The translations under genes were made by a program, and so were the position numbers. The notes below the pieces were generated by a model. That model did no database searches. It had not been told where the DNA came from and saw only the letters and a list, made by a program, of their open reading frames with translations. 64,000 nucleotides of DNA from a virus. The stretch lies in IMG/VR virus record IMGVR_UViG_3300031851_000013, positions 7,616 to 71,615 of that record. One strand, 5' to 3'. Shown here in pieces: positions 25,032-28,323 of this stretch; position 1 is the stretch's first letter; the number at the start of each line of letters is the position of its first letter.

Positions 25032-25107
25032 TGGAGCCGATGATAGGAATTGAACCTACAACCTACTGATTACAAATCAGTTGCTCTGCCAGTTGAGCTA
25101 CATCGGC
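25032..25107 (-). tRNA. trnT: tRNA-Thr(TGT)
   Basis: Cloverleaf GCCGATG...CATCGGC TCCA; anticodon arm ACTGA-TTTGTAA-TCAGT; GGTTCAA T-loop. Confidence 0.95.
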
Positions 25108-25629
25108 TTAGAGTTTATACCCAATAAGATATGGCAACCATTTTTCGTGAATCTTCTTTCTCTCTAGAACATGAAATGTTTCAGAAGAAGGTTGAACAGG
25201 TTGTCGTAAAGGTTGCATATTAACCTGAAATGGAAGTTTGTCTCCCTTTATTTGGTTACATCGCTTACAGCAGGTTACTATATTCTCCCAAGTCTTTGGT
25301 CCACCTCTACTCCTTGGAGTTACGTGATCCAAAGTAAGTAAATCAGTAGAAAATATGTTTCCACAATATTGGCAGGTATTACTATCTCTCCAAAATACAT
25401 TTTTTCTATTACACTTTAAAGTTAATTTGTCTCTTCTTATATATCTGTTTAGTGAAATAACACTAGGTACTGGAAATTTCTTATAAGCTGAACAAATAAA
25501 TTCCTTATCATAGGCTTCTACTAGATTAGCCCTTTTCATATAAATCATACAAAATGCTTCAAACGCTGTTATAATCTGCACTGGTCTATAAGACGAATCC
25601 AGCTTCAGCGTTCTACGCTCTTCTGACAA
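25108..25629 (-). CDS. HNH endonuclease (McrA-like)
   Basis: RD..CQYCG...TLDHVTPRSRGG...WENIVTCCKRCN. Confidence 0.92.
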   Translation of the reverse strand: MSEERRTLKLDSSYRPVQIITAFEAFCMIYMKRANLVEAYDKEFICSAYKKFPVPSVISLNRYIRRDKLTLKCNRKNVFWRDSNTCQYCGNIFSTDLLTLDHVTPRSRGGPKTWENIVTCCKRCNQIKGDKLPFQVNMQPLRQPVQPSSETFHVLERKKIHEKWLPYLIGYKL

Positions 25630-25904: not shown

Positions 25905-25977
25905 CTGGGACGGCTGGATTTGAACCAACAACTTTCGGAGTAACAATCCGATGCTCTGCCAATTGAACTACATCCCA
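25905..25977 (-). tRNA. trnN: tRNA-Asn(GTT), CCA not encoded (CCT follows)
   Basis: TGGGATG/CGTCCCA acceptor; TCGGA-TTGTTAC-TCCGA anticodon arm; GGTTCAAAT. Confidence 0.9.
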
Positions 25978-25983
25978 ACTATA

Positions 25984-26265
25984 TTAAAGAGGCTTGTACC
26001 CCTTGTGATAATAATTTTCACCTTCTATTTTCATAAATGAATCATAATCCTCATGAAGATGAAAATAACCTAAAACCTCTGGAATGTCTTGACAATCTTC
26101 TGGTAATGGGTAAATCTTACCAAATGGTAGAGAAGAAGCTGGGTTGAAGAAGAAGGGGTCCACAGTTTCAAGTGAAGACCACCAAGCAATCATCTCCTTA
26201 CGAGATTTACTTGTTTCCCAAACCCAGTGGCGGTAGCCATATTCTTCATCTACTAAAAATTTCAT
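25984..26265 (-). CDS. Hypothetical protein
   Basis: 93 aa, coupled to clpP stop. Confidence 0.65.
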   Translation of the reverse strand: MKFLVDEEYGYRHWVWETSKSRKEMIAWWSSLETVDPFFFNPASSLPFGKIYPLPEDCQDIPEVLGYFHLHEDYDSFMKIEGENYYHKGYKPL

Positions 26266-26882
26266 TAAATGATCTCGTCAATCAAACCATACTTGAGACA
26301 CTTCTCTGCGTCCCACCATAGATCGTGTTTTAAAATCTTATCAAGTTCTTTTTTGGGAACTTGAGTGTGCTCTTCGTAAATCTCTTTAATAACTTTCATA
26401 AAGTTATCACAGTTCTCCATGTCATCTTGAAGTTCTTCATACTTCCCCCATAACCCAGAAGATAACTGGTGGATTAACATATAAGCATGACGATTCATCT
26501 GACGATGACTGGCAGTGACACTCATCATAGTTGCAGCACTAGCTGCACAACCATCAATTACAGAAACCACTGGGACTTTAGATTTAATAATATAGTCAAC
26601 AGAAGATAACCCAGCAAAAACACTACCACCATATGAATTAATATGAAGATAGATCTTACCGGGATCAGTATTCAGCGTGACCGAACGATTCTGAAGGTTA
26701 ATATCTAAATTAACCAAAGACTTATTTAGTTCTAAATTCTTGGTCCTTGAGACCTCTGAATAAAAGTAAATCCTGTTATTAACAGTCTCTACTTTATTGT
26801 TATCATCAGAAGAAGCTGCTTCTGAACCACATATGGCGGTAGGATCTTTCTTCTCACCTAACCAATAAATATCTTTTCTCAT
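26265..26882 (-). CDS. clpP: ClpP-like serine protease
   Basis: LHINSYGG, GCAASAA (Ser), MLIHQ (His), HDLW (Asp), YGLIDEI. Confidence 0.9.
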   Translation of the reverse strand: MRKDIYWLGEKKDPTAICGSEAASSDDNNKVETVNNRIYFYSEVSRTKNLELNKSLVNLDINLQNRSVTLNTDPGKIYLHINSYGGSVFAGLSSVDYIIKSKVPVVSVIDGCAASAATMMSVTASHRQMNRHAYMLIHQLSSGLWGKYEELQDDMENCDNFMKVIKEIYEEHTQVPKKELDKILKHDLWWDAEKCLKYGLIDEII

Positions 26883-26909
26883 TGTTTGTTACTCCTAATT
26901 TAAGATATA

Positions 26910-26986
26910 TGGCACGCCCGAGAGGACTTGAACCTCTAACCCTCCGCTTAGAAGGCGGATGCTCTATCCAGTTGAGCTACGGGCGC
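26910..26986 (-). tRNA. trnR: tRNA-Arg(TCT)
   Basis: GCGCCCG acceptor; TCCGC-CTTCTAA-GCGGA; CCA encoded. Confidence 0.95.
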
Positions 26987-27005
26987 ATAAAACTTTCACT
27001 ATACT

Positions 27006-27034
27006 AATATAACACAGCTTTACTGCTTTGTCAA
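27006..27034 (-). promoter_or_regulatory. sigma70-type promoter for tRNA-Arg/clpP unit
   Basis: TTGACA-17-TATATT with extended TG. Confidence 0.75.
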
Positions 27035-27076
27035 ATAAAAAAAGCCGGTACAAGTAAAAAAACTCATACCGGCTTT
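27035..27076 (-). terminator. Intrinsic terminator ending the tmRNA-containing unit
   Basis: AAAGCCGGTA...TACCGGCTTT hairpin plus U tract. Confidence 0.8.
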
Positions 27077-27094
27077 GAAACTTAATATGTTTAT

Positions 27095-27265
27095 TTATTT
27101 TTCTGAAACTGCGTCTTCAGCTTTTCCGAGTAGAGAAGCGAGCTTTACTCTAATTCTCTTTACAGGTGTGGTAACGTTTTCCACGATAAGACCTGTAGCT
27201 ACGCCAATACCCAGTGCGAGCGCATGTGTTCCTACGAACTGTACTATTTGTTGTAATGTTTCCAT
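27095..27265 (-). CDS. Small membrane protein (56 aa)
   Basis: AAGGAG SD; METLQQIVQFVGTHALALGIGVATGLIV...; below the track cutoff. Confidence 0.7.
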   Translation of the reverse strand: METLQQIVQFVGTHALALGIGVATGLIVENVTTPVKRIRVKLASLLGKAEDAVSEK

Positions 27266-27304
27266 TTTGTTTTTCTCCTTTTGGTGTTAAACACCTTGTT
27301 GAAA

Positions 27305-27666
27305 TGGTGGAGGTGGGGAGAGTCGAACTCCCGTCCACAATAGCTTTAATATTAAGTCATTCACAAGCTTGTTCGGTTTACTATCAGAAACCGACAAAGA
27401 TAGATAGACAACCCTGCGCTTACTATCCTGTTGCGCTCCACCTATAAATAGGGAACCATTGTGGTTTTGTTTATTTTAGTGGAACCAACCACTTATCCTA
27501 AATTGGTAAGATGGCTTTAGGAAACCACCCGATTAAGCTGCTAGAGCTAGTTCGTAATTGTTATTGTTATTGGCAATTAAAATTTTGTAACGCTGTCAAG
27601 CCATGTGTTACCGTTGGCTACTTGCACTCTCTACCTCTACTACCCTGTCGAATCCATTTCACCCCC
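27305..27666 (-). ncRNA. ssrA: tmRNA; tag (A)ANNNNNYELALAA at 27574-27533
   Basis: 5' GGGGGTGAAATGGATTCGAC; 3' GGACGGGAGTTCGACTCTCCCCACCTCCACCA; G3-U alanine pair; tag ORF ending ALAA*. Confidence 0.95.
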
Positions 27667-28008
27667 ATTAATATATTGTTCTGATTTGAACTTCTTATAT
27701 AGTTGTCTAAATGCTTTCGGAGTAATCCCCAAAAACCTACTTGCTTCACCTTTAGTTTTAGTTGCTGTTAATGCAAATGTAAAAATAGATTCTTTAATAA
27801 TATCTTGAAGTGAGAACCATAATGGTAAACCATATAATTTACCGCCTGCTGCTTTAGCAGCTAGTTCTAACTTTAATGAAATTATTTCCTCTAGTGTTAG
27901 ACTATTGAGAAGGACTTCTAAATCATATGACAGTCTCTTCTCTTTTTTTAGTCTTCTTAATAGTGAGAATTCTTTGTTACCTATTTTCTTCATTTGAATC
28001 TTTTGCAA
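27640..28008 (-). CDS. Fis-type helix-turn-helix protein; last 27 nt lie inside tmRNA
   Basis: ALTATKTKGEASRFLGITPKAFRQLYKKF matches the Fis/NtrC C-terminal HTH pattern. Confidence 0.7.
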   Translation of the reverse strand: MQKIQMKKIGNKEFSLLRRLKKEKRLSYDLEVLLNSLTLEEIISLKLELAAKAAGGKLYGLPLWFSLQDIIKESIFTFALTATKTKGEASRFLGITPKAFRQLYKKFKSEQYINGGEMDSTG

Positions 28009-28267
28009 CTCCTAAAATAGCATAACCACAAATATCTTTCCAAGGACTTTCTCCAAAAGCATCTTTGTTATTAGCTACTCTAAATAATTTATCAATGACT
28101 CTTACTAATGTTAACATATCTTGATATTGATCTACGCTAACACCATTAGGATAAAGTACTTGTAGGATTTTTTGAGCTTGTGAAAATGAATCACCATAAG
28201 CTTCGTTCTTAGATTGAACTAGCTTACCAATATCACTTCCAATTGTTTCAAAGATCTTGTTATTCAA
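27977..28267 (-). CDS. Nucleotide-modification-associated helical protein (DUF1599/MazG-like)
   Basis: KNEAYGDSF...DKLFR...DICGYAIL. Confidence 0.65.
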   Translation of the reverse strand: MNNKIFETIGSDIGKLVQSKNEAYGDSFSQAQKILQVLYPNGVSVDQYQDMLTLVRVIDKLFRVANNKDAFGESPWKDICGYAILGVAKDSNEENR

Positions 28268-28295
28268 TAGATTACTCTCTTTCAGATTTACCTAT

Positions 28296-28323
28296 ATAAT
28301 AACACATCTTACATATTTGTCAA
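28296..28323 (-). promoter_or_regulatory. sigma70-type promoter for DUF1599-like/Fis/tmRNA unit
   Basis: TTGACA-16-TATTAT with TGTG. Confidence 0.65.

What the first reader, a model, noticed from the sequence alone, without database searches (positions are those of the whole stretch)
26265..28323. Self-tagging circuit: tmRNA starts in frame inside the Fis-like gene, so its maturation should create a non-stop mRNA; ClpP lies nearby
Seen: the last 9 codons of the Fis-HTH ORF (GGG GGT GAA ATG GAT TCG ACA GGG TAG, 27666-27640) are the first 27 nt of the tmRNA, and tmRNA G1 falls exactly on a codon boundary. A sigma70 promoter (28296-28323) and a terminator (27035-27076) bracket DUF1599-like, Fis-like, tmRNA and a small membrane gene; clpP is in the next unit. 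Established: RNase P cuts pre-tmRNA at G1, non-stop mRNAs are trans-translated, and ALAA-type tags direct ClpXP/ClpAP degradation. Inference: each tmRNA matured from this transcript leaves a stop-less Fis mRNA (...QYIN) whose product gets ANNNNNYELALAA and is degraded, whereas unprocessed transcript gives stable protein ending GGEMDSTG. This could be a sensor or timer coupling a phage regulator to trans-translation capacity.
Basis: partly seen in the sequence, partly recalled or inferred. Interest (0 to 1): 0.88.

Follow-up and report, generated by a model that had tools for sequence, protein, structure and literature searches.

The report
Phage regulator gene ending inside tmRNA
In this uncultured marine phage a small DNA-binding-type gene has no stop codon of its own and borrows its last eight codons and its stop from the phage's ribosome-rescue RNA (tmRNA), a real and conserved layout that most likely comes from tight gene packing and has a published precedent in an insect symbiont.

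Summary
ORF 27640-28008(-) ends ...QYIN-GGEMDSTG-TAG, and its last 27 nt are the first 27 nt of an intact tmRNA (27305-27666, Rfam 111.8 bits); G1 sits on a codon boundary. It is no assembly error: 10 other distinct loci carry an overlap of 12-30 nt in the same frame.

In the window's subclade (8 of 8 loci) I found no sigma70-like site within 400 nt before G1. A conserved strong promoter lies 657-693 nt upstream, and a conserved small membrane gene and a terminator follow the tmRNA. Co-transcription is therefore likely, and RNase P cutting at G1 would leave a stop-less message. That step is inferred.

Nothing shows an evolved sensor. Sister loci keep a perfect tmRNA promoter inside the ORF. 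Three unrelated upstream gene families also run into the tmRNA, in all three frames. ORF stops touch tRNA 5' ends elsewhere in the window. The "ClpP" looks more like a head-maturation protease.

The idea is in print for Carsonella smpB-ssrA (PMC4131195). This scan has already noted the same layout on related phage DNA. Verdict: a real feature and a new member of a known kind; the circuit is untested.

The parts
28296..28323 (-). sigma70-like promoter (TTGACA-16-TATTAT, TG-extended), the likely start of the transcription unit
   Evidence: 11 of 12. A promoter-like site at 10 of 12 or better sits at the equivalent place (-657 to -693 from G1) in 8 of 8 loci of the window's subclade.
27977..28267 (-). 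96-aa ORF of unknown function, first gene of the unit; its end overlaps the start of the HTH gene
   Evidence: PHROG 1485 (unknown function) at 4.9e-8. No Pfam or NCBIfam hit.
27640..28008 (-). HTH-type (Fis-fold-like) gene. It is 122 aa from the TTG at 28008; the ATG at 27993 is the more likely start by comparison with homologs. It has no stop of its own, and its last 8 codons plus TAG lie in the tmRNA.
   Evidence: 113 homologs. Alignment A1. AF2 model with pLDDT 76 and a disordered tail at about residues 113-122. Fis chains are the top structural matches at Z 7.2.
27640..27666 (-). 27-nt overlap: the tmRNA acceptor-stem 5' strand and the start of helix 2 are read as GGEMDSTG plus a stop
27305..27666 (-). 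one-piece tmRNA with tag ANNNNNYELALAA, G3-U pair and encoded CCA
   Evidence: Acceptor stem with compensatory changes across loci.
27095..27265 (-). 56-aa small membrane-type ORF with an AAGGAG ribosome-binding site, starting 40 nt after the tmRNA 3' end
   Evidence: Conserved after the tmRNA in WIN, L082, L083, L001, L085, L087 and L086, with a similar small ORF in L090.
27041..27076 (-). intrinsic terminator closing the unit
   Evidence: 15 pairs plus a T run. (-23.8 kcal/mol, z -7.4).
27006..27034 (-). next sigma70-like promoter (TTGACA-17-TATATT), the start of the following unit
   Evidence: Found at about +632 from G1 in 6 of 8 subclade loci, with weaker or shifted sites in L086 and L090.
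26910..26986 (-). tRNA-Arg(TCT), first gene of the next unit
26265..26882 (-). ClpP-fold serine protease, more likely the phage head-maturation protease than a ClpXP partner; not shown to belong to the feature
   Evidence: Pfam PF00574 at 4.5e-27. PHROG 94 head maturation protease at 1.4e-40. NCBIfam NF045542 at 105.4 bits (cut-off 120), against ClpP equivalogs at 51-59 bits with cut-offs of 251-361.

Best explanation
This is a tightly packed early-type operon of an uncultured marine phage: promoter, 96-aa ORF, HTH gene, tmRNA, small membrane gene, terminator. In the ancestor the HTH gene ended at or in the -35 box of a strong promoter that drove the tmRNA. In the window's lineage that promoter and the gene's own tail and stop were deleted. 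The tmRNA is now made by read-through from the operon promoter, and the gene ends at the first in-frame stop inside the tmRNA (UAG at tmRNA positions 25-27). When host RNase P releases the tmRNA 5' end, the upstream message is left ending ...AAU with no stop. Ribosomes on it would stall and be rescued by trans-translation, so that product would be tagged AANNNNNYELALAA and degraded. Only protein made before processing would end in GGEMDSTG. I read this as a tolerated by-product of packing and tRNA-style punctuation of a polycistronic transcript, not as an evolved sensor. Shown here: the overlap and its conservation, the intact tmRNA, the lack of an own promoter in this subclade, and the operon frame. 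Inferred: co-transcription, the RNase P cut, the stop-less mRNA, tagging and degradation.
For: Overlap and tmRNA.

Conservation. The overlap has the same frame in 10 other distinct loci: -27 or -30 nt in L082, L083, L087, L001, L085, L086, L090, L002 and L109, and -12 nt in L021. In addition, 12 of 113 database homologs (P0001-P0012) carry tmRNA-type tails.

The tmRNA is under RNA constraint. Acceptor positions 5 and 6 change together with their partners, and G3-U is kept.

A continuum of spacing in the family. The gap from the HTH stop to G1 runs -30, -27, -12, 0, 10, 37, 42-58, then 116 to about 1600 nt.

An ancestral promoter at the gene end. The TTGACA box is read as the codons L-D-(K/N) in the gap-37 loci, in L027 and in L158. 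In L002, L093 and L109 a perfect TTGACA-17-TATATT lies inside the extended ORF, 15-18 nt before G1.

The window's subclade. None of 8 loci has a site at 10 of 12 or better within 400 nt before G1, and 8 of 8 have one at -657 to -693. The small ORF and terminator after the tmRNA are conserved.

Packing is general. Of 76 distinct tmRNA 5' contexts, 26 are crossed by a frame of 70 codons or more. These frames belong to 4 unrelated families (11, 12, 3 and 1 contexts, counting one 69-codon case), with overlaps of 8 to 41 nt and G1 at codon position 1, 2 or 3. Of the 26, 24 lack a promoter-like site in the last 80 nt, whereas 10 of 15 ORFs that stop 0-60 nt before G1 have one (Fisher p 1.3e-4, rows not phylogenetically independent).

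tRNAs in the same loci. Of 48 with an adjacent ORF, 7 are overlapped, 5 abut and 15 lie 1-10 nt away. In the window the HNH gene's TAA abuts tRNA-Thr.

The frame-0 stop at tmRNA 25-27 (TAA or TAG) is also present in tmRNAs that nothing overlaps. The tail is predicted disordered.

One 151-nt contig from an rRNA-depleted RNA library matches 27625-27775 without a mismatch and so bridges G1. This is weak, because DNA carry-over is not excluded.

RNase P processing of the tmRNA 5' end is stated in the start of the abstract of PMC3985003 (listing).
Against: In the HTH family every junction keeps G1 at codon position 1 despite indels next to it. Examples are N versus ND before G1, a 3-nt longer leader in L109 than in L002, and an 8-codon shorter form, P0011, seen as protein only. 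This could mean that the frame is selected.

No member of the overlap group has acquired a stop before G1, at 55-97% protein identity.

The overlap recurs with four gene families, and ORFs cross tmRNA 5' ends more often (26 crossing versus 15 stopping 0-60 nt before) than they cross tRNA 5' ends (7 of 48). Selection could produce this pattern as well as packing could.

My promoter scan covers only sigma70-type sites, so a phage-specific promoter inside the gene would be missed.

There are no raw RNA reads, so no 5' end at 27666 was seen (one search gave contigs only).
Confidence: 0.6

Rival explanations
1. Selected self-limiting circuit. The phage keeps the gene before its promoter-less tmRNA stop-less on purpose. 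Each tmRNA matured destroys one regulator message and marks its product for degradation, so regulator level reports trans-translation capacity or times an early-to-middle switch.
For: The stop-less consequence follows from the anatomy. The frame is kept through junction indels in the HTH family. No stop was gained before G1 in 11 distinct contexts. ORF-into-tmRNA overlap recurs in 4 gene families and is more frequent than at tRNAs. The logic has a proven precedent in arfA, where RNase III makes a non-stop mRNA whose product is SsrA-tagged unless trans-translation is saturated (PMC3989581 section 11). The same feedback was proposed for Carsonella smpB-ssrA (PMC4131195 section 14).
Against: The second gene family uses all three frames and six overlap lengths, so no particular tail or frame is kept there. 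The sister loci L002 and L109 have a full tmRNA promoter inside the ORF, so most of their tmRNA need not come from the regulator message. Most of the family has an ordinary stop. The zero-gap ORF-tRNA junctions point to packing. The neighbouring protease is probably a prohead protease. No SmpB gene was found in the 71.6-kb record, which is only a fragment. No functional data exist.
Confidence: 0.17
2. The tmRNA is made mainly from an unrecognised promoter inside the HTH gene, for example the weak TATATA/TATAAG motif near 27696-27704 or a phage-specific promoter, or the upstream transcript mostly ends before it. The regulator message would then rarely be cut, and the overlap would be a plain shared-sequence overlap without consequence.
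For: The sister loci do carry a promoter inside the ORF. Weak 9-of-12 sites exist at the equivalent place in L085 and L087. The scan covers only sigma70-type promoters.
Against: The window, L082, L083, L001, L086 and L090 have no site at 9 of 12 or better within 120 nt of G1, and none of the 8 subclade loci has one at 10 of 12 or better within 400 nt. The DNA conservation there is explained by the conserved residues FRQLYKKF, and synonymous sites vary in the more distant members. No terminator-like site lies between the operon promoter and the tmRNA. One RNA-library contig bridges G1. Even with an internal promoter, transcripts from the upstream promoter would still run into the tmRNA.
Confidence: 0.15
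3. Artefact: an assembly error or a recent stop-codon loss in one contig.
For: None found.
Against: The same junction occurs in independent assemblies at 55-97% protein identity, with differing tmRNA tags.
Confidence: 0.01

Closest known systems
smpB-ssrA overlap in Candidatus Carsonella ruddii (Mao et al. 2009 as cited in Hudson, Lau and Williams 2014, PMC4131195; passages of the abstract and of sections 14 and 17 read)
   Same: A same-strand protein gene extends into the 5' end of the tmRNA gene, so tmRNA maturation is expected to leave a non-stop mRNA that is then a substrate of trans-translation. The authors call this a feedback situation. The extension is described as an apparently random sequence that depends on how far the gene intrudes.
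   Different: Here the setting is a phage, not a reduced symbiont. The gene is an HTH-type protein, not SmpB. The layout recurs with at least four upstream gene families in one phage group, whereas that paper found the tmRNA case 'nowhere else but in Carsonella'. Neither case has experimental data.
arfA regulation in E. coli (review PMC3989581, section 11 passages read)
   Same: An endonuclease cut inside the ORF makes a programmed non-stop mRNA. The product is SsrA-tagged and degraded while trans-translation is active.
   Different: In arfA the cut is made by RNase III at a hairpin, not by RNase P at a tmRNA. The truncated ArfA is the active form and the system is proven. Here nothing shows that the truncated HTH protein has a role.
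tRNA punctuation of polycistronic transcripts (mitochondria; start of the abstract of PMC8601606 seen in the listing) and bacterial CDS/t(m)RNA overlaps (Table 4 of PMC4131195)
   Same: RNase P excision of tRNA-like units defines mRNA 3' ends. ORF stops lie at, next to or inside the RNA gene.
   Different: In bacteria such overlaps are rare, about 1 in 15,000 mRNAs in that survey. In these phage loci 27 of 48 tRNA contexts with an adjacent ORF have it within 10 nt or overlapping.
Fis / NtrC-type HTH_8 DNA-binding proteins
   Same: The predicted fold aligns over 77-82 residues with nearly the whole Fis chain (Z 7.1-7.2, rmsd 3.2-3.9 A). The top 10 rows are all Fis chains, and rows 1-19 are Fis or sigma54-activator DNA-binding domains. 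Two database homologs were named Fis or NtrC by their source.
   Different: No Pfam HTH_8 hit reaches threshold. Z is in the range that the tool's own note calls common for helical models. The N-terminal part differs. DNA binding is untested.
Phage-encoded tmRNAs (for example the OM43 phage Melnitz, PMC9004378, passages read)
   Same: A marine phage carries its own ssrA in an early operon next to a regulatory gene.
   Different: Melnitz has a two-piece tmRNA behind a glutamine riboswitch. In the passages I read, no ORF is reported to end inside the tmRNA.

Membership tests
tmRNA (Rfam RF00023) | Covariance-model score above the gathering threshold over the full model | tested here: met
   111.8 bits against 47, model positions 1-374. 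ARAGORN gives the same coordinates.
tmRNA (Rfam RF00023) | tRNA-Ala-like acceptor stem with a G3-U pair and a 3' CCA | tested here: met
   GGGGGTG pairs with CACCTCC, with G3-U, followed by ACCA. Compensatory changes at positions 5 and 6 across loci.
tmRNA (Rfam RF00023) | Internal tag reading frame ending in a hydrophobic (L)AA plus a stop | tested here: met
   ANNNNNYELALAA*.
tmRNA (Rfam RF00023) | Alanylation, SmpB binding and trans-translation activity | not testable with these tools
   No SmpB gene in the 71.6-kb record, which is an estimated 39% of the genome. Host factors are presumed.
CDS-ssrA overlap that yields a non-stop mRNA (Carsonella type) | A same-strand CDS whose stop codon lies inside the tmRNA gene | tested here: met
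CDS-ssrA overlap that yields a non-stop mRNA (Carsonella type) | CDS and tmRNA lie on one transcript | tested here: inconclusive
   No own sigma70-like promoter, a conserved upstream promoter, and a downstream ORF plus terminator. One RNA-library contig bridges G1. No raw reads.
CDS-ssrA overlap that yields a non-stop mRNA (Carsonella type) | RNase P cut at G1 and a tagged product | not testable with these tools
   Needs RNA end mapping and proteomics.
ArfA-like regulated non-stop gene | The truncated product is functional and accumulates when trans-translation is limiting | not testable with these tools
   No data. The conserved core of the family ends at the Y-F/I motif, just before G1, so the truncated protein would keep the whole core.
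Fis family HTH (Pfam PF02954 HTH_8) | Pfam model hit at the gathering threshold | tested here: not met
   No hit for the window protein at E<=0.1. 7 of 30 relatives hit below threshold, best E 0.024; HTH_28 hits 13 of 30, best E 0.0011.
Fis family HTH (Pfam PF02954 HTH_8) | Fis-like fold: a long helix pair plus a C-terminal helix-turn-helix | tested here: inconclusive
   Foldseek's top hits are Fis at E 0.7-1.5. VIA-align gives Z 7.2 over 77-82 residues, a middling value for a helical model.
ClpP (ATP-dependent Clp protease proteolytic subunit) | Clp_protease domain present | tested here: met
   PF00574 at 95.5 bits against a cut-off of 20.2, residues 73-205.
ClpP (ATP-dependent Clp protease proteolytic subunit) | Scores as a ClpP equivalog rather than as a phage prohead protease | tested here: not met
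   TIGR00493 at 55.7 bits against 308.6. The best match is NF045542, head maturation protease ClpP-related, at 105.4 bits against 120. PHROG 94 head maturation protease at 1.4e-40.

The most novel reading that the evidence does not exclude
In this group of uncultured marine phages, leaving the gene in front of a promoter-less tmRNA without a stop codon is a selected device and not an accident. Whatever early gene sits there (the HTH regulator here, three other families elsewhere) is made only from unprocessed transcript. Its message is turned into a ribosome-stalling, self-tagging substrate each time a tmRNA is released. That would couple early-gene shut-off, or a measure of the host's rescue capacity, to phage tmRNA production, with ArfA-like logic driven by RNase P.
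Probability: 0.17. Interest if true: 0.8.

Novelty: new member of a known kind. Interest (0 to 1): 0.42.

Why it matters
If the cut and the tagging occur, these phages give a compact and easily cloned natural system in which maturation of a ribosome-rescue RNA makes its own substrate. The only published case (Carsonella smpB-ssrA) is in an unculturable symbiont and was said to be unique. A phage group in which at least four different genes end inside the tmRNA, beside relatives with ordinary stops and separate promoters, allows a direct comparison of stop-less and stop-bearing layouts. Even if it is only packing, it shows tRNA-style punctuation of phage messages. It also warns annotators that the tmRNA-derived tails (GGEMDSTG and the like) are not protein features.

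Tried and rejected
Assembly error or a recent stop loss: rejected, because the same junction occurs in independent assemblies.

A special meaning for 'G1 on a codon boundary': weakened. It holds in all 11 HTH-family contexts, but the second gene family enters the tmRNA with G1 at codon position 1, 2 or 3. A gap-0 ancestor like L033 and L048 would give frame 0 by a simple stop loss.

The stop at tmRNA 25-27 as an adaptation: rejected, because tmRNAs that nothing overlaps also carry TAA or TAG there.

Own promoter in the window: none at 9 of 12 or better within 120 nt of G1. The motif near 27696-27704 has no -35 partner by my reading.

Cultured relatives: blastn of 3 kb hit only the tRNA-Arg, and tblastn of the HTH protein found no match in 50,697 phage records.

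Rfam on 18 related loci found only tmRNA and tRNA. The overlapping 'tmRNA_permuted' rows lie on or beside the one-piece tmRNAs, and I take them as echoes.

Number of origins: a 72-sequence tree put all -27/-30 loci in one clade with support 0.94, with L158 nested inside. A 121-sequence tree gave support 0.68, and there the clade also holds the non-overlapping L091-L097, with L021 a weakly supported sister at 0.30. One to three origins; unresolved for a 120-aa protein.

RNA evidence: 6 runs hold small shares, 0.04-0.23 of the sampled words. Four were laid, and they are contigs only, at depth 2-6. No starts or ends can be read from them, and parts without cover mean nothing.

SmpB: not found in the 71.6-kb record, which is a fragment; no conclusion.

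Literature. Only 3 papers hold both 'tmRNA maturation' and 'non-stop', and only PMC4131195 among them describes such an overlap. I found no paper that describes it in phages. LacI self-tagging (Abo et al. 2000) and integration-dependent immunity with ssrA-like tags (PMC4557955, listing only) are recalled parallels that I did not read.


Full report
WHAT IS THERE. The window is 64 kb of a 71.6-kb viral record, estimated 39% complete. On the minus strand, ARAGORN and Rfam (RF00023, 111.8 bits against a gathering score of 47, full model) place a one-piece tmRNA at 27305-27666. Its tag is ANNNNNYELALAA. It has a G3-U acceptor pair and an encoded CCA. The ORF 27640-28008 reads ...TAT ATT AAT | GGG GGT GAA ATG GAT TCG ACA GGG TAG. 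By homolog alignment its likely start is the ATG at 27993. So its last eight sense codons and its stop are tmRNA positions 1-27, and G1 is a first codon position.

THE UNIT. A near-consensus promoter-like site lies at 28323-28296 (11 of 12, TG-extended). It precedes a 96-aa ORF whose end overlaps the start of the HTH gene. No other minus-strand promoter-like site lies between 28086 and G1, and no terminator-like site lies before the tmRNA. Forty nucleotides after the tmRNA 3' end, a 56-aa membrane-type ORF with an AAGGAG site begins. A strong terminator follows at 27076-27041 (-23.8 kcal/mol, z -7.4). The next promoter-like site (27034-27006) opens a new unit with tRNA-Arg and a ClpP-fold protease.

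THE PROTEIN. Pfam, PHROGs and NCBIfam give no hit for the window protein. Among 30 aligned relatives only sub-threshold HTH models appear: HTH_28 in 13 of 30 and HTH_8 in 7 of 30, best E 0.024. An AlphaFold model (pLDDT 76) is all-helical, with a low-confidence tail from about residue 113. Foldseek's top hits are Fis chains, at a non-significant E of 0.7-1.5. VIA-align gives Z 7.1-7.2 over 77-82 residues, covering nearly the whole Fis chain. 'Fis-like' is therefore a reasonable fold-level label, not a shown membership.

RELATIVES. The protein has 113 database homologs among 130 candidates. The 12 closest (57-96% identity) end in tmRNA-type tails such as GGEMDSTG(Q), GGDLDSTG, GDDLDSTR and GGETDSTG; one, P0009, ends in a shorter ...GGD. 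The other 101 end a few variable residues after a conserved Y-F motif.

I fetched 80 viral loci and 80 metagenome loci and located ORF ends and tmRNAs by script.
- Viral loci: 4 of the 80 gave no tblastn hit in my script and were dropped. Of the remaining 76, 48 have a tmRNA downstream on the same strand.
- Metagenome loci: 43 of the 80 have one, 1 ORF runs off its contig, and 36 have none, many of them with little downstream DNA.
- The gap from the HTH stop to G1 forms a continuum: -30/-27, -12, 0, 10, 37, 42-58, then 116 to about 1600 nt.
- The -27/-30 state is found in the window and in L082, L083, L087 (same as L088), L001 (same as L084), L085, L086, L090, L002 (same as L093) and L109. L021 overlaps by 12 nt. 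All have G1 at codon position 1.

The overlap is thus conserved and real.

HOW IT AROSE. In many family members the tmRNA has its own strong promoter, whose -35 box TTGACA is read as the last codons L-D-(K/N) of the HTH gene. This holds for the gap-37 loci, L027 and L158. In L002, L093 and L109 the ORF has lost its stop. It reads through a perfect TTGACA-17-TATATT and a 15-18-nt leader into the tmRNA, and no other promoter-like site lies within 1.2 kb upstream. In the window's subclade these roughly 20 codons are absent and G1 follows the Y-I/F motif by one or two codons. None of the 8 loci has a site at 10 of 12 or better within 400 nt before G1, while all 8 have one at -657 to -693, in front of the 96-aa ORF homolog. 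The small membrane ORF and a hairpin plus T-run after the tmRNA are conserved as well. The simplest history is a deletion that removed tail, stop, promoter and leader, which left the tmRNA dependent on the operon promoter. Trees of this short protein put the overlappers in one clade (support 0.94 with 72 sequences, 0.68 with 121). The larger tree also places non-overlapping members (L091-L097) inside that clade, so one to three origins remain possible.

THE WIDER PATTERN. The same thing happens with other genes. Among 76 distinct tmRNA 5' contexts in all fetched loci, 26 are crossed by an open frame of 70 codons or more. Counting one 69-codon case, these frames fall into four unrelated families:
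- the HTH family, 11 contexts;
- a second family, 12 contexts, with overlaps of 10, 12, 27, 28, 40 or 41 nt and G1 at codon position 1, 2 or 3;
- a third family, 3 contexts, which overlaps by 8 nt and uses the UGA at tmRNA positions 6-8;
- a singleton.

The second family is a real gene: its conserved motif is kept through synonymous differences between loci. Crossing goes with the absence of a promoter. Of the 26 crossed contexts, 24 have no site at 10 of 12 or better in the last 80 nt, whereas 10 of 15 ORFs that stop 0-60 nt before G1 have one (Fisher p 1.3e-4, not corrected for relatedness).

tRNAs in the same loci are packed in the same way. Of 48 with an adjacent ORF of 80 aa or more, 7 are overlapped, 5 abut and 15 lie 1-10 nt away. 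In the window itself the HNH gene's TAA touches the first base of tRNA-Thr, and another ORF stops 6 nt before tRNA-Asn. The picture is a phage group whose tRNA/tmRNA region is transcribed as long messages punctuated by RNase P sites.

MECHANISM. That RNase P makes the tmRNA 5' end is textbook knowledge, and I saw it in the start of the abstract of PMC3985003 (listing). Non-stop messages are rescued by tmRNA-SmpB and their products are tagged for proteolysis (PMC4131195 introduction). Given co-transcription, each cut at 27666 leaves an HTH message ending ...AAU without a stop. The product would be ...QYIN plus the charged alanine plus ANNNNNYELALAA. Ribosomes that pass before the acceptor stem can form would terminate normally at the UAG; the 3' strand of that stem is transcribed 360 nt later. 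The conserved core of the family ends just before G1, so both forms carry the whole core.

All of this is inference. The only RNA evidence is a 151-nt contig from an rRNA-depleted library that matches 27625-27775 without a mismatch and so bridges G1, plus low-depth contigs over the tmRNA and both flanking ORFs. These are contigs, DNA carry-over cannot be excluded, and no ends can be read from them.

SENSOR OR BY-PRODUCT. For selection:
- The HTH family keeps frame 0 through indels beside the junction.
- No member has gained a stop before G1.
- ORFs cross tmRNA 5' ends more often than tRNA 5' ends.

Against selection:
- The second family shows no preferred frame or overlap length.
- A gap-0 ancestor like L033 and L048 yields frame 0 by a single stop loss.
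- The in-frame stop at tmRNA 25-27 exists in tmRNAs that nothing overlaps.
- Sister loci have a promoter inside the ORF.
- Most of the family has an ordinary stop.
- The protease next door is best matched by 'head maturation protease, ClpP-related' (105.4 bits) and only weakly by true ClpP models: 72.8 bits for the best subfamily model against a cut-off of 249, and 29-59 bits for the equivalog models against cut-offs of 251-361 (PHROG 94). It gives the proposed circuit no support.

I put about 0.6 on packing with a tolerated non-stop by-product, about 0.17 on a selected circuit, and about 0.15 on an unseen internal promoter that makes the overlap inconsequential.

WHAT IS KNOWN. The exact idea is in print. 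Hudson, Lau and Williams 2014 (PMC4131195; passages read) report, following Mao et al. 2009, that smpB runs into ssrA in Carsonella. [quoted passage not shown] In their survey, same-orientation CDS/t(m)RNA overlaps affect about 1 in 15,000 bacterial mRNAs. The proven relative in logic is arfA, whose RNase III-cut non-stop message gives a product that is tagged unless trans-translation is saturated (PMC3989581 section 11). Phage tmRNAs are known (PMC9004378; list in PMC4131195). My searches found no paper that describes a phage ORF ending inside a tmRNA. That statement is limited to the held library, and supplements were closed.

This scan has already noted the same layout on related phage DNA: e1-5982400, e1-5982386, e1-6074522, and e1-5858202 for a membrane-protein gene. 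Those notes led me to the Carsonella paper, which I then read myself.

VERDICT. This is a new member of a known kind (CDS-ssrA overlap predicted to make non-stop mRNA). It is made more interesting by its recurrence with several genes in one phage group and by being easy to test in a cloned operon, but there is no evidence that it is a regulatory device.

Noticed in passing
window 25107-25110 and 25977-25986 (minus strand): The stop codon TAA of the HNH endonuclease gene (25108-25629) directly abuts the first base of tRNA-Thr (25107). The ORF 25984-26265 stops 6 nt before tRNA-Asn (25977). RNase P cuts would leave these messages with essentially no 3' untranslated region.
   Followed up: partly
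L004, L012, L015, L058, L102, L110, L115, L131, L151, L154, L155, L156 (just upstream of each tmRNA): A second, unrelated small gene family with a conserved W-L-D-x-E-x-G-x-P-x-G motif and a lysine-rich end always runs into the tmRNA. The overlaps are 10-41 nt, in all three frames. In several of these loci a TAA sits out of frame directly before G1, after an A-rich run.
   Followed up: partly
L121, L135, L146 (upstream of tmRNA): A third gene family of about 126 codons ends at the UGA of tmRNA positions 6-8, an 8-nt overlap.
   Followed up: no
L007, L036, L003, L006, L026, L032, L141, L159 and others, between the HTH gene and the tmRNA: Loci with a gap of about 250 nt share a conserved, structured-looking element and a conserved AT-rich leader of about 15 nt right before G1. 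The same leader lies downstream of the -10 box in the gap-37 loci. Rfam names nothing there at gathering thresholds.
   Followed up: partly
L035, L040, L047, L150, L027, L158, L002, L109 (end of the HTH gene): The -35 box TTGACA of the tmRNA promoter is embedded in the last codons (L-D-K/N) of the HTH gene, so the gene end and the promoter share sequence in several lineages.
   Followed up: yes
window 26265-26882 (minus strand): The 205-aa ClpP-fold protein scores best as a ClpP-related head-maturation protease (NCBIfam NF045542 at 105 bits, PHROG 94 at 1.4e-40). It sits next to an acidic 279-aa protein and giant ORFs, so this may be a head-assembly region.
   Followed up: partly
L059, L060, L062 (tmRNA calls of about 470 nt); L002 5004-5098 and 5685-5782: ARAGORN calls unusually long tmRNAs with an odd tag (…KLNEL) in three loci. 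It also-98-nt tRNA-Ile(tat) and tRNA-Asp genes, which may hold insertions or introns.
   Followed up: no
A Fis/NtrC-type HTH protein in the same phage might be connected. I did not check this.
   Followed up: no
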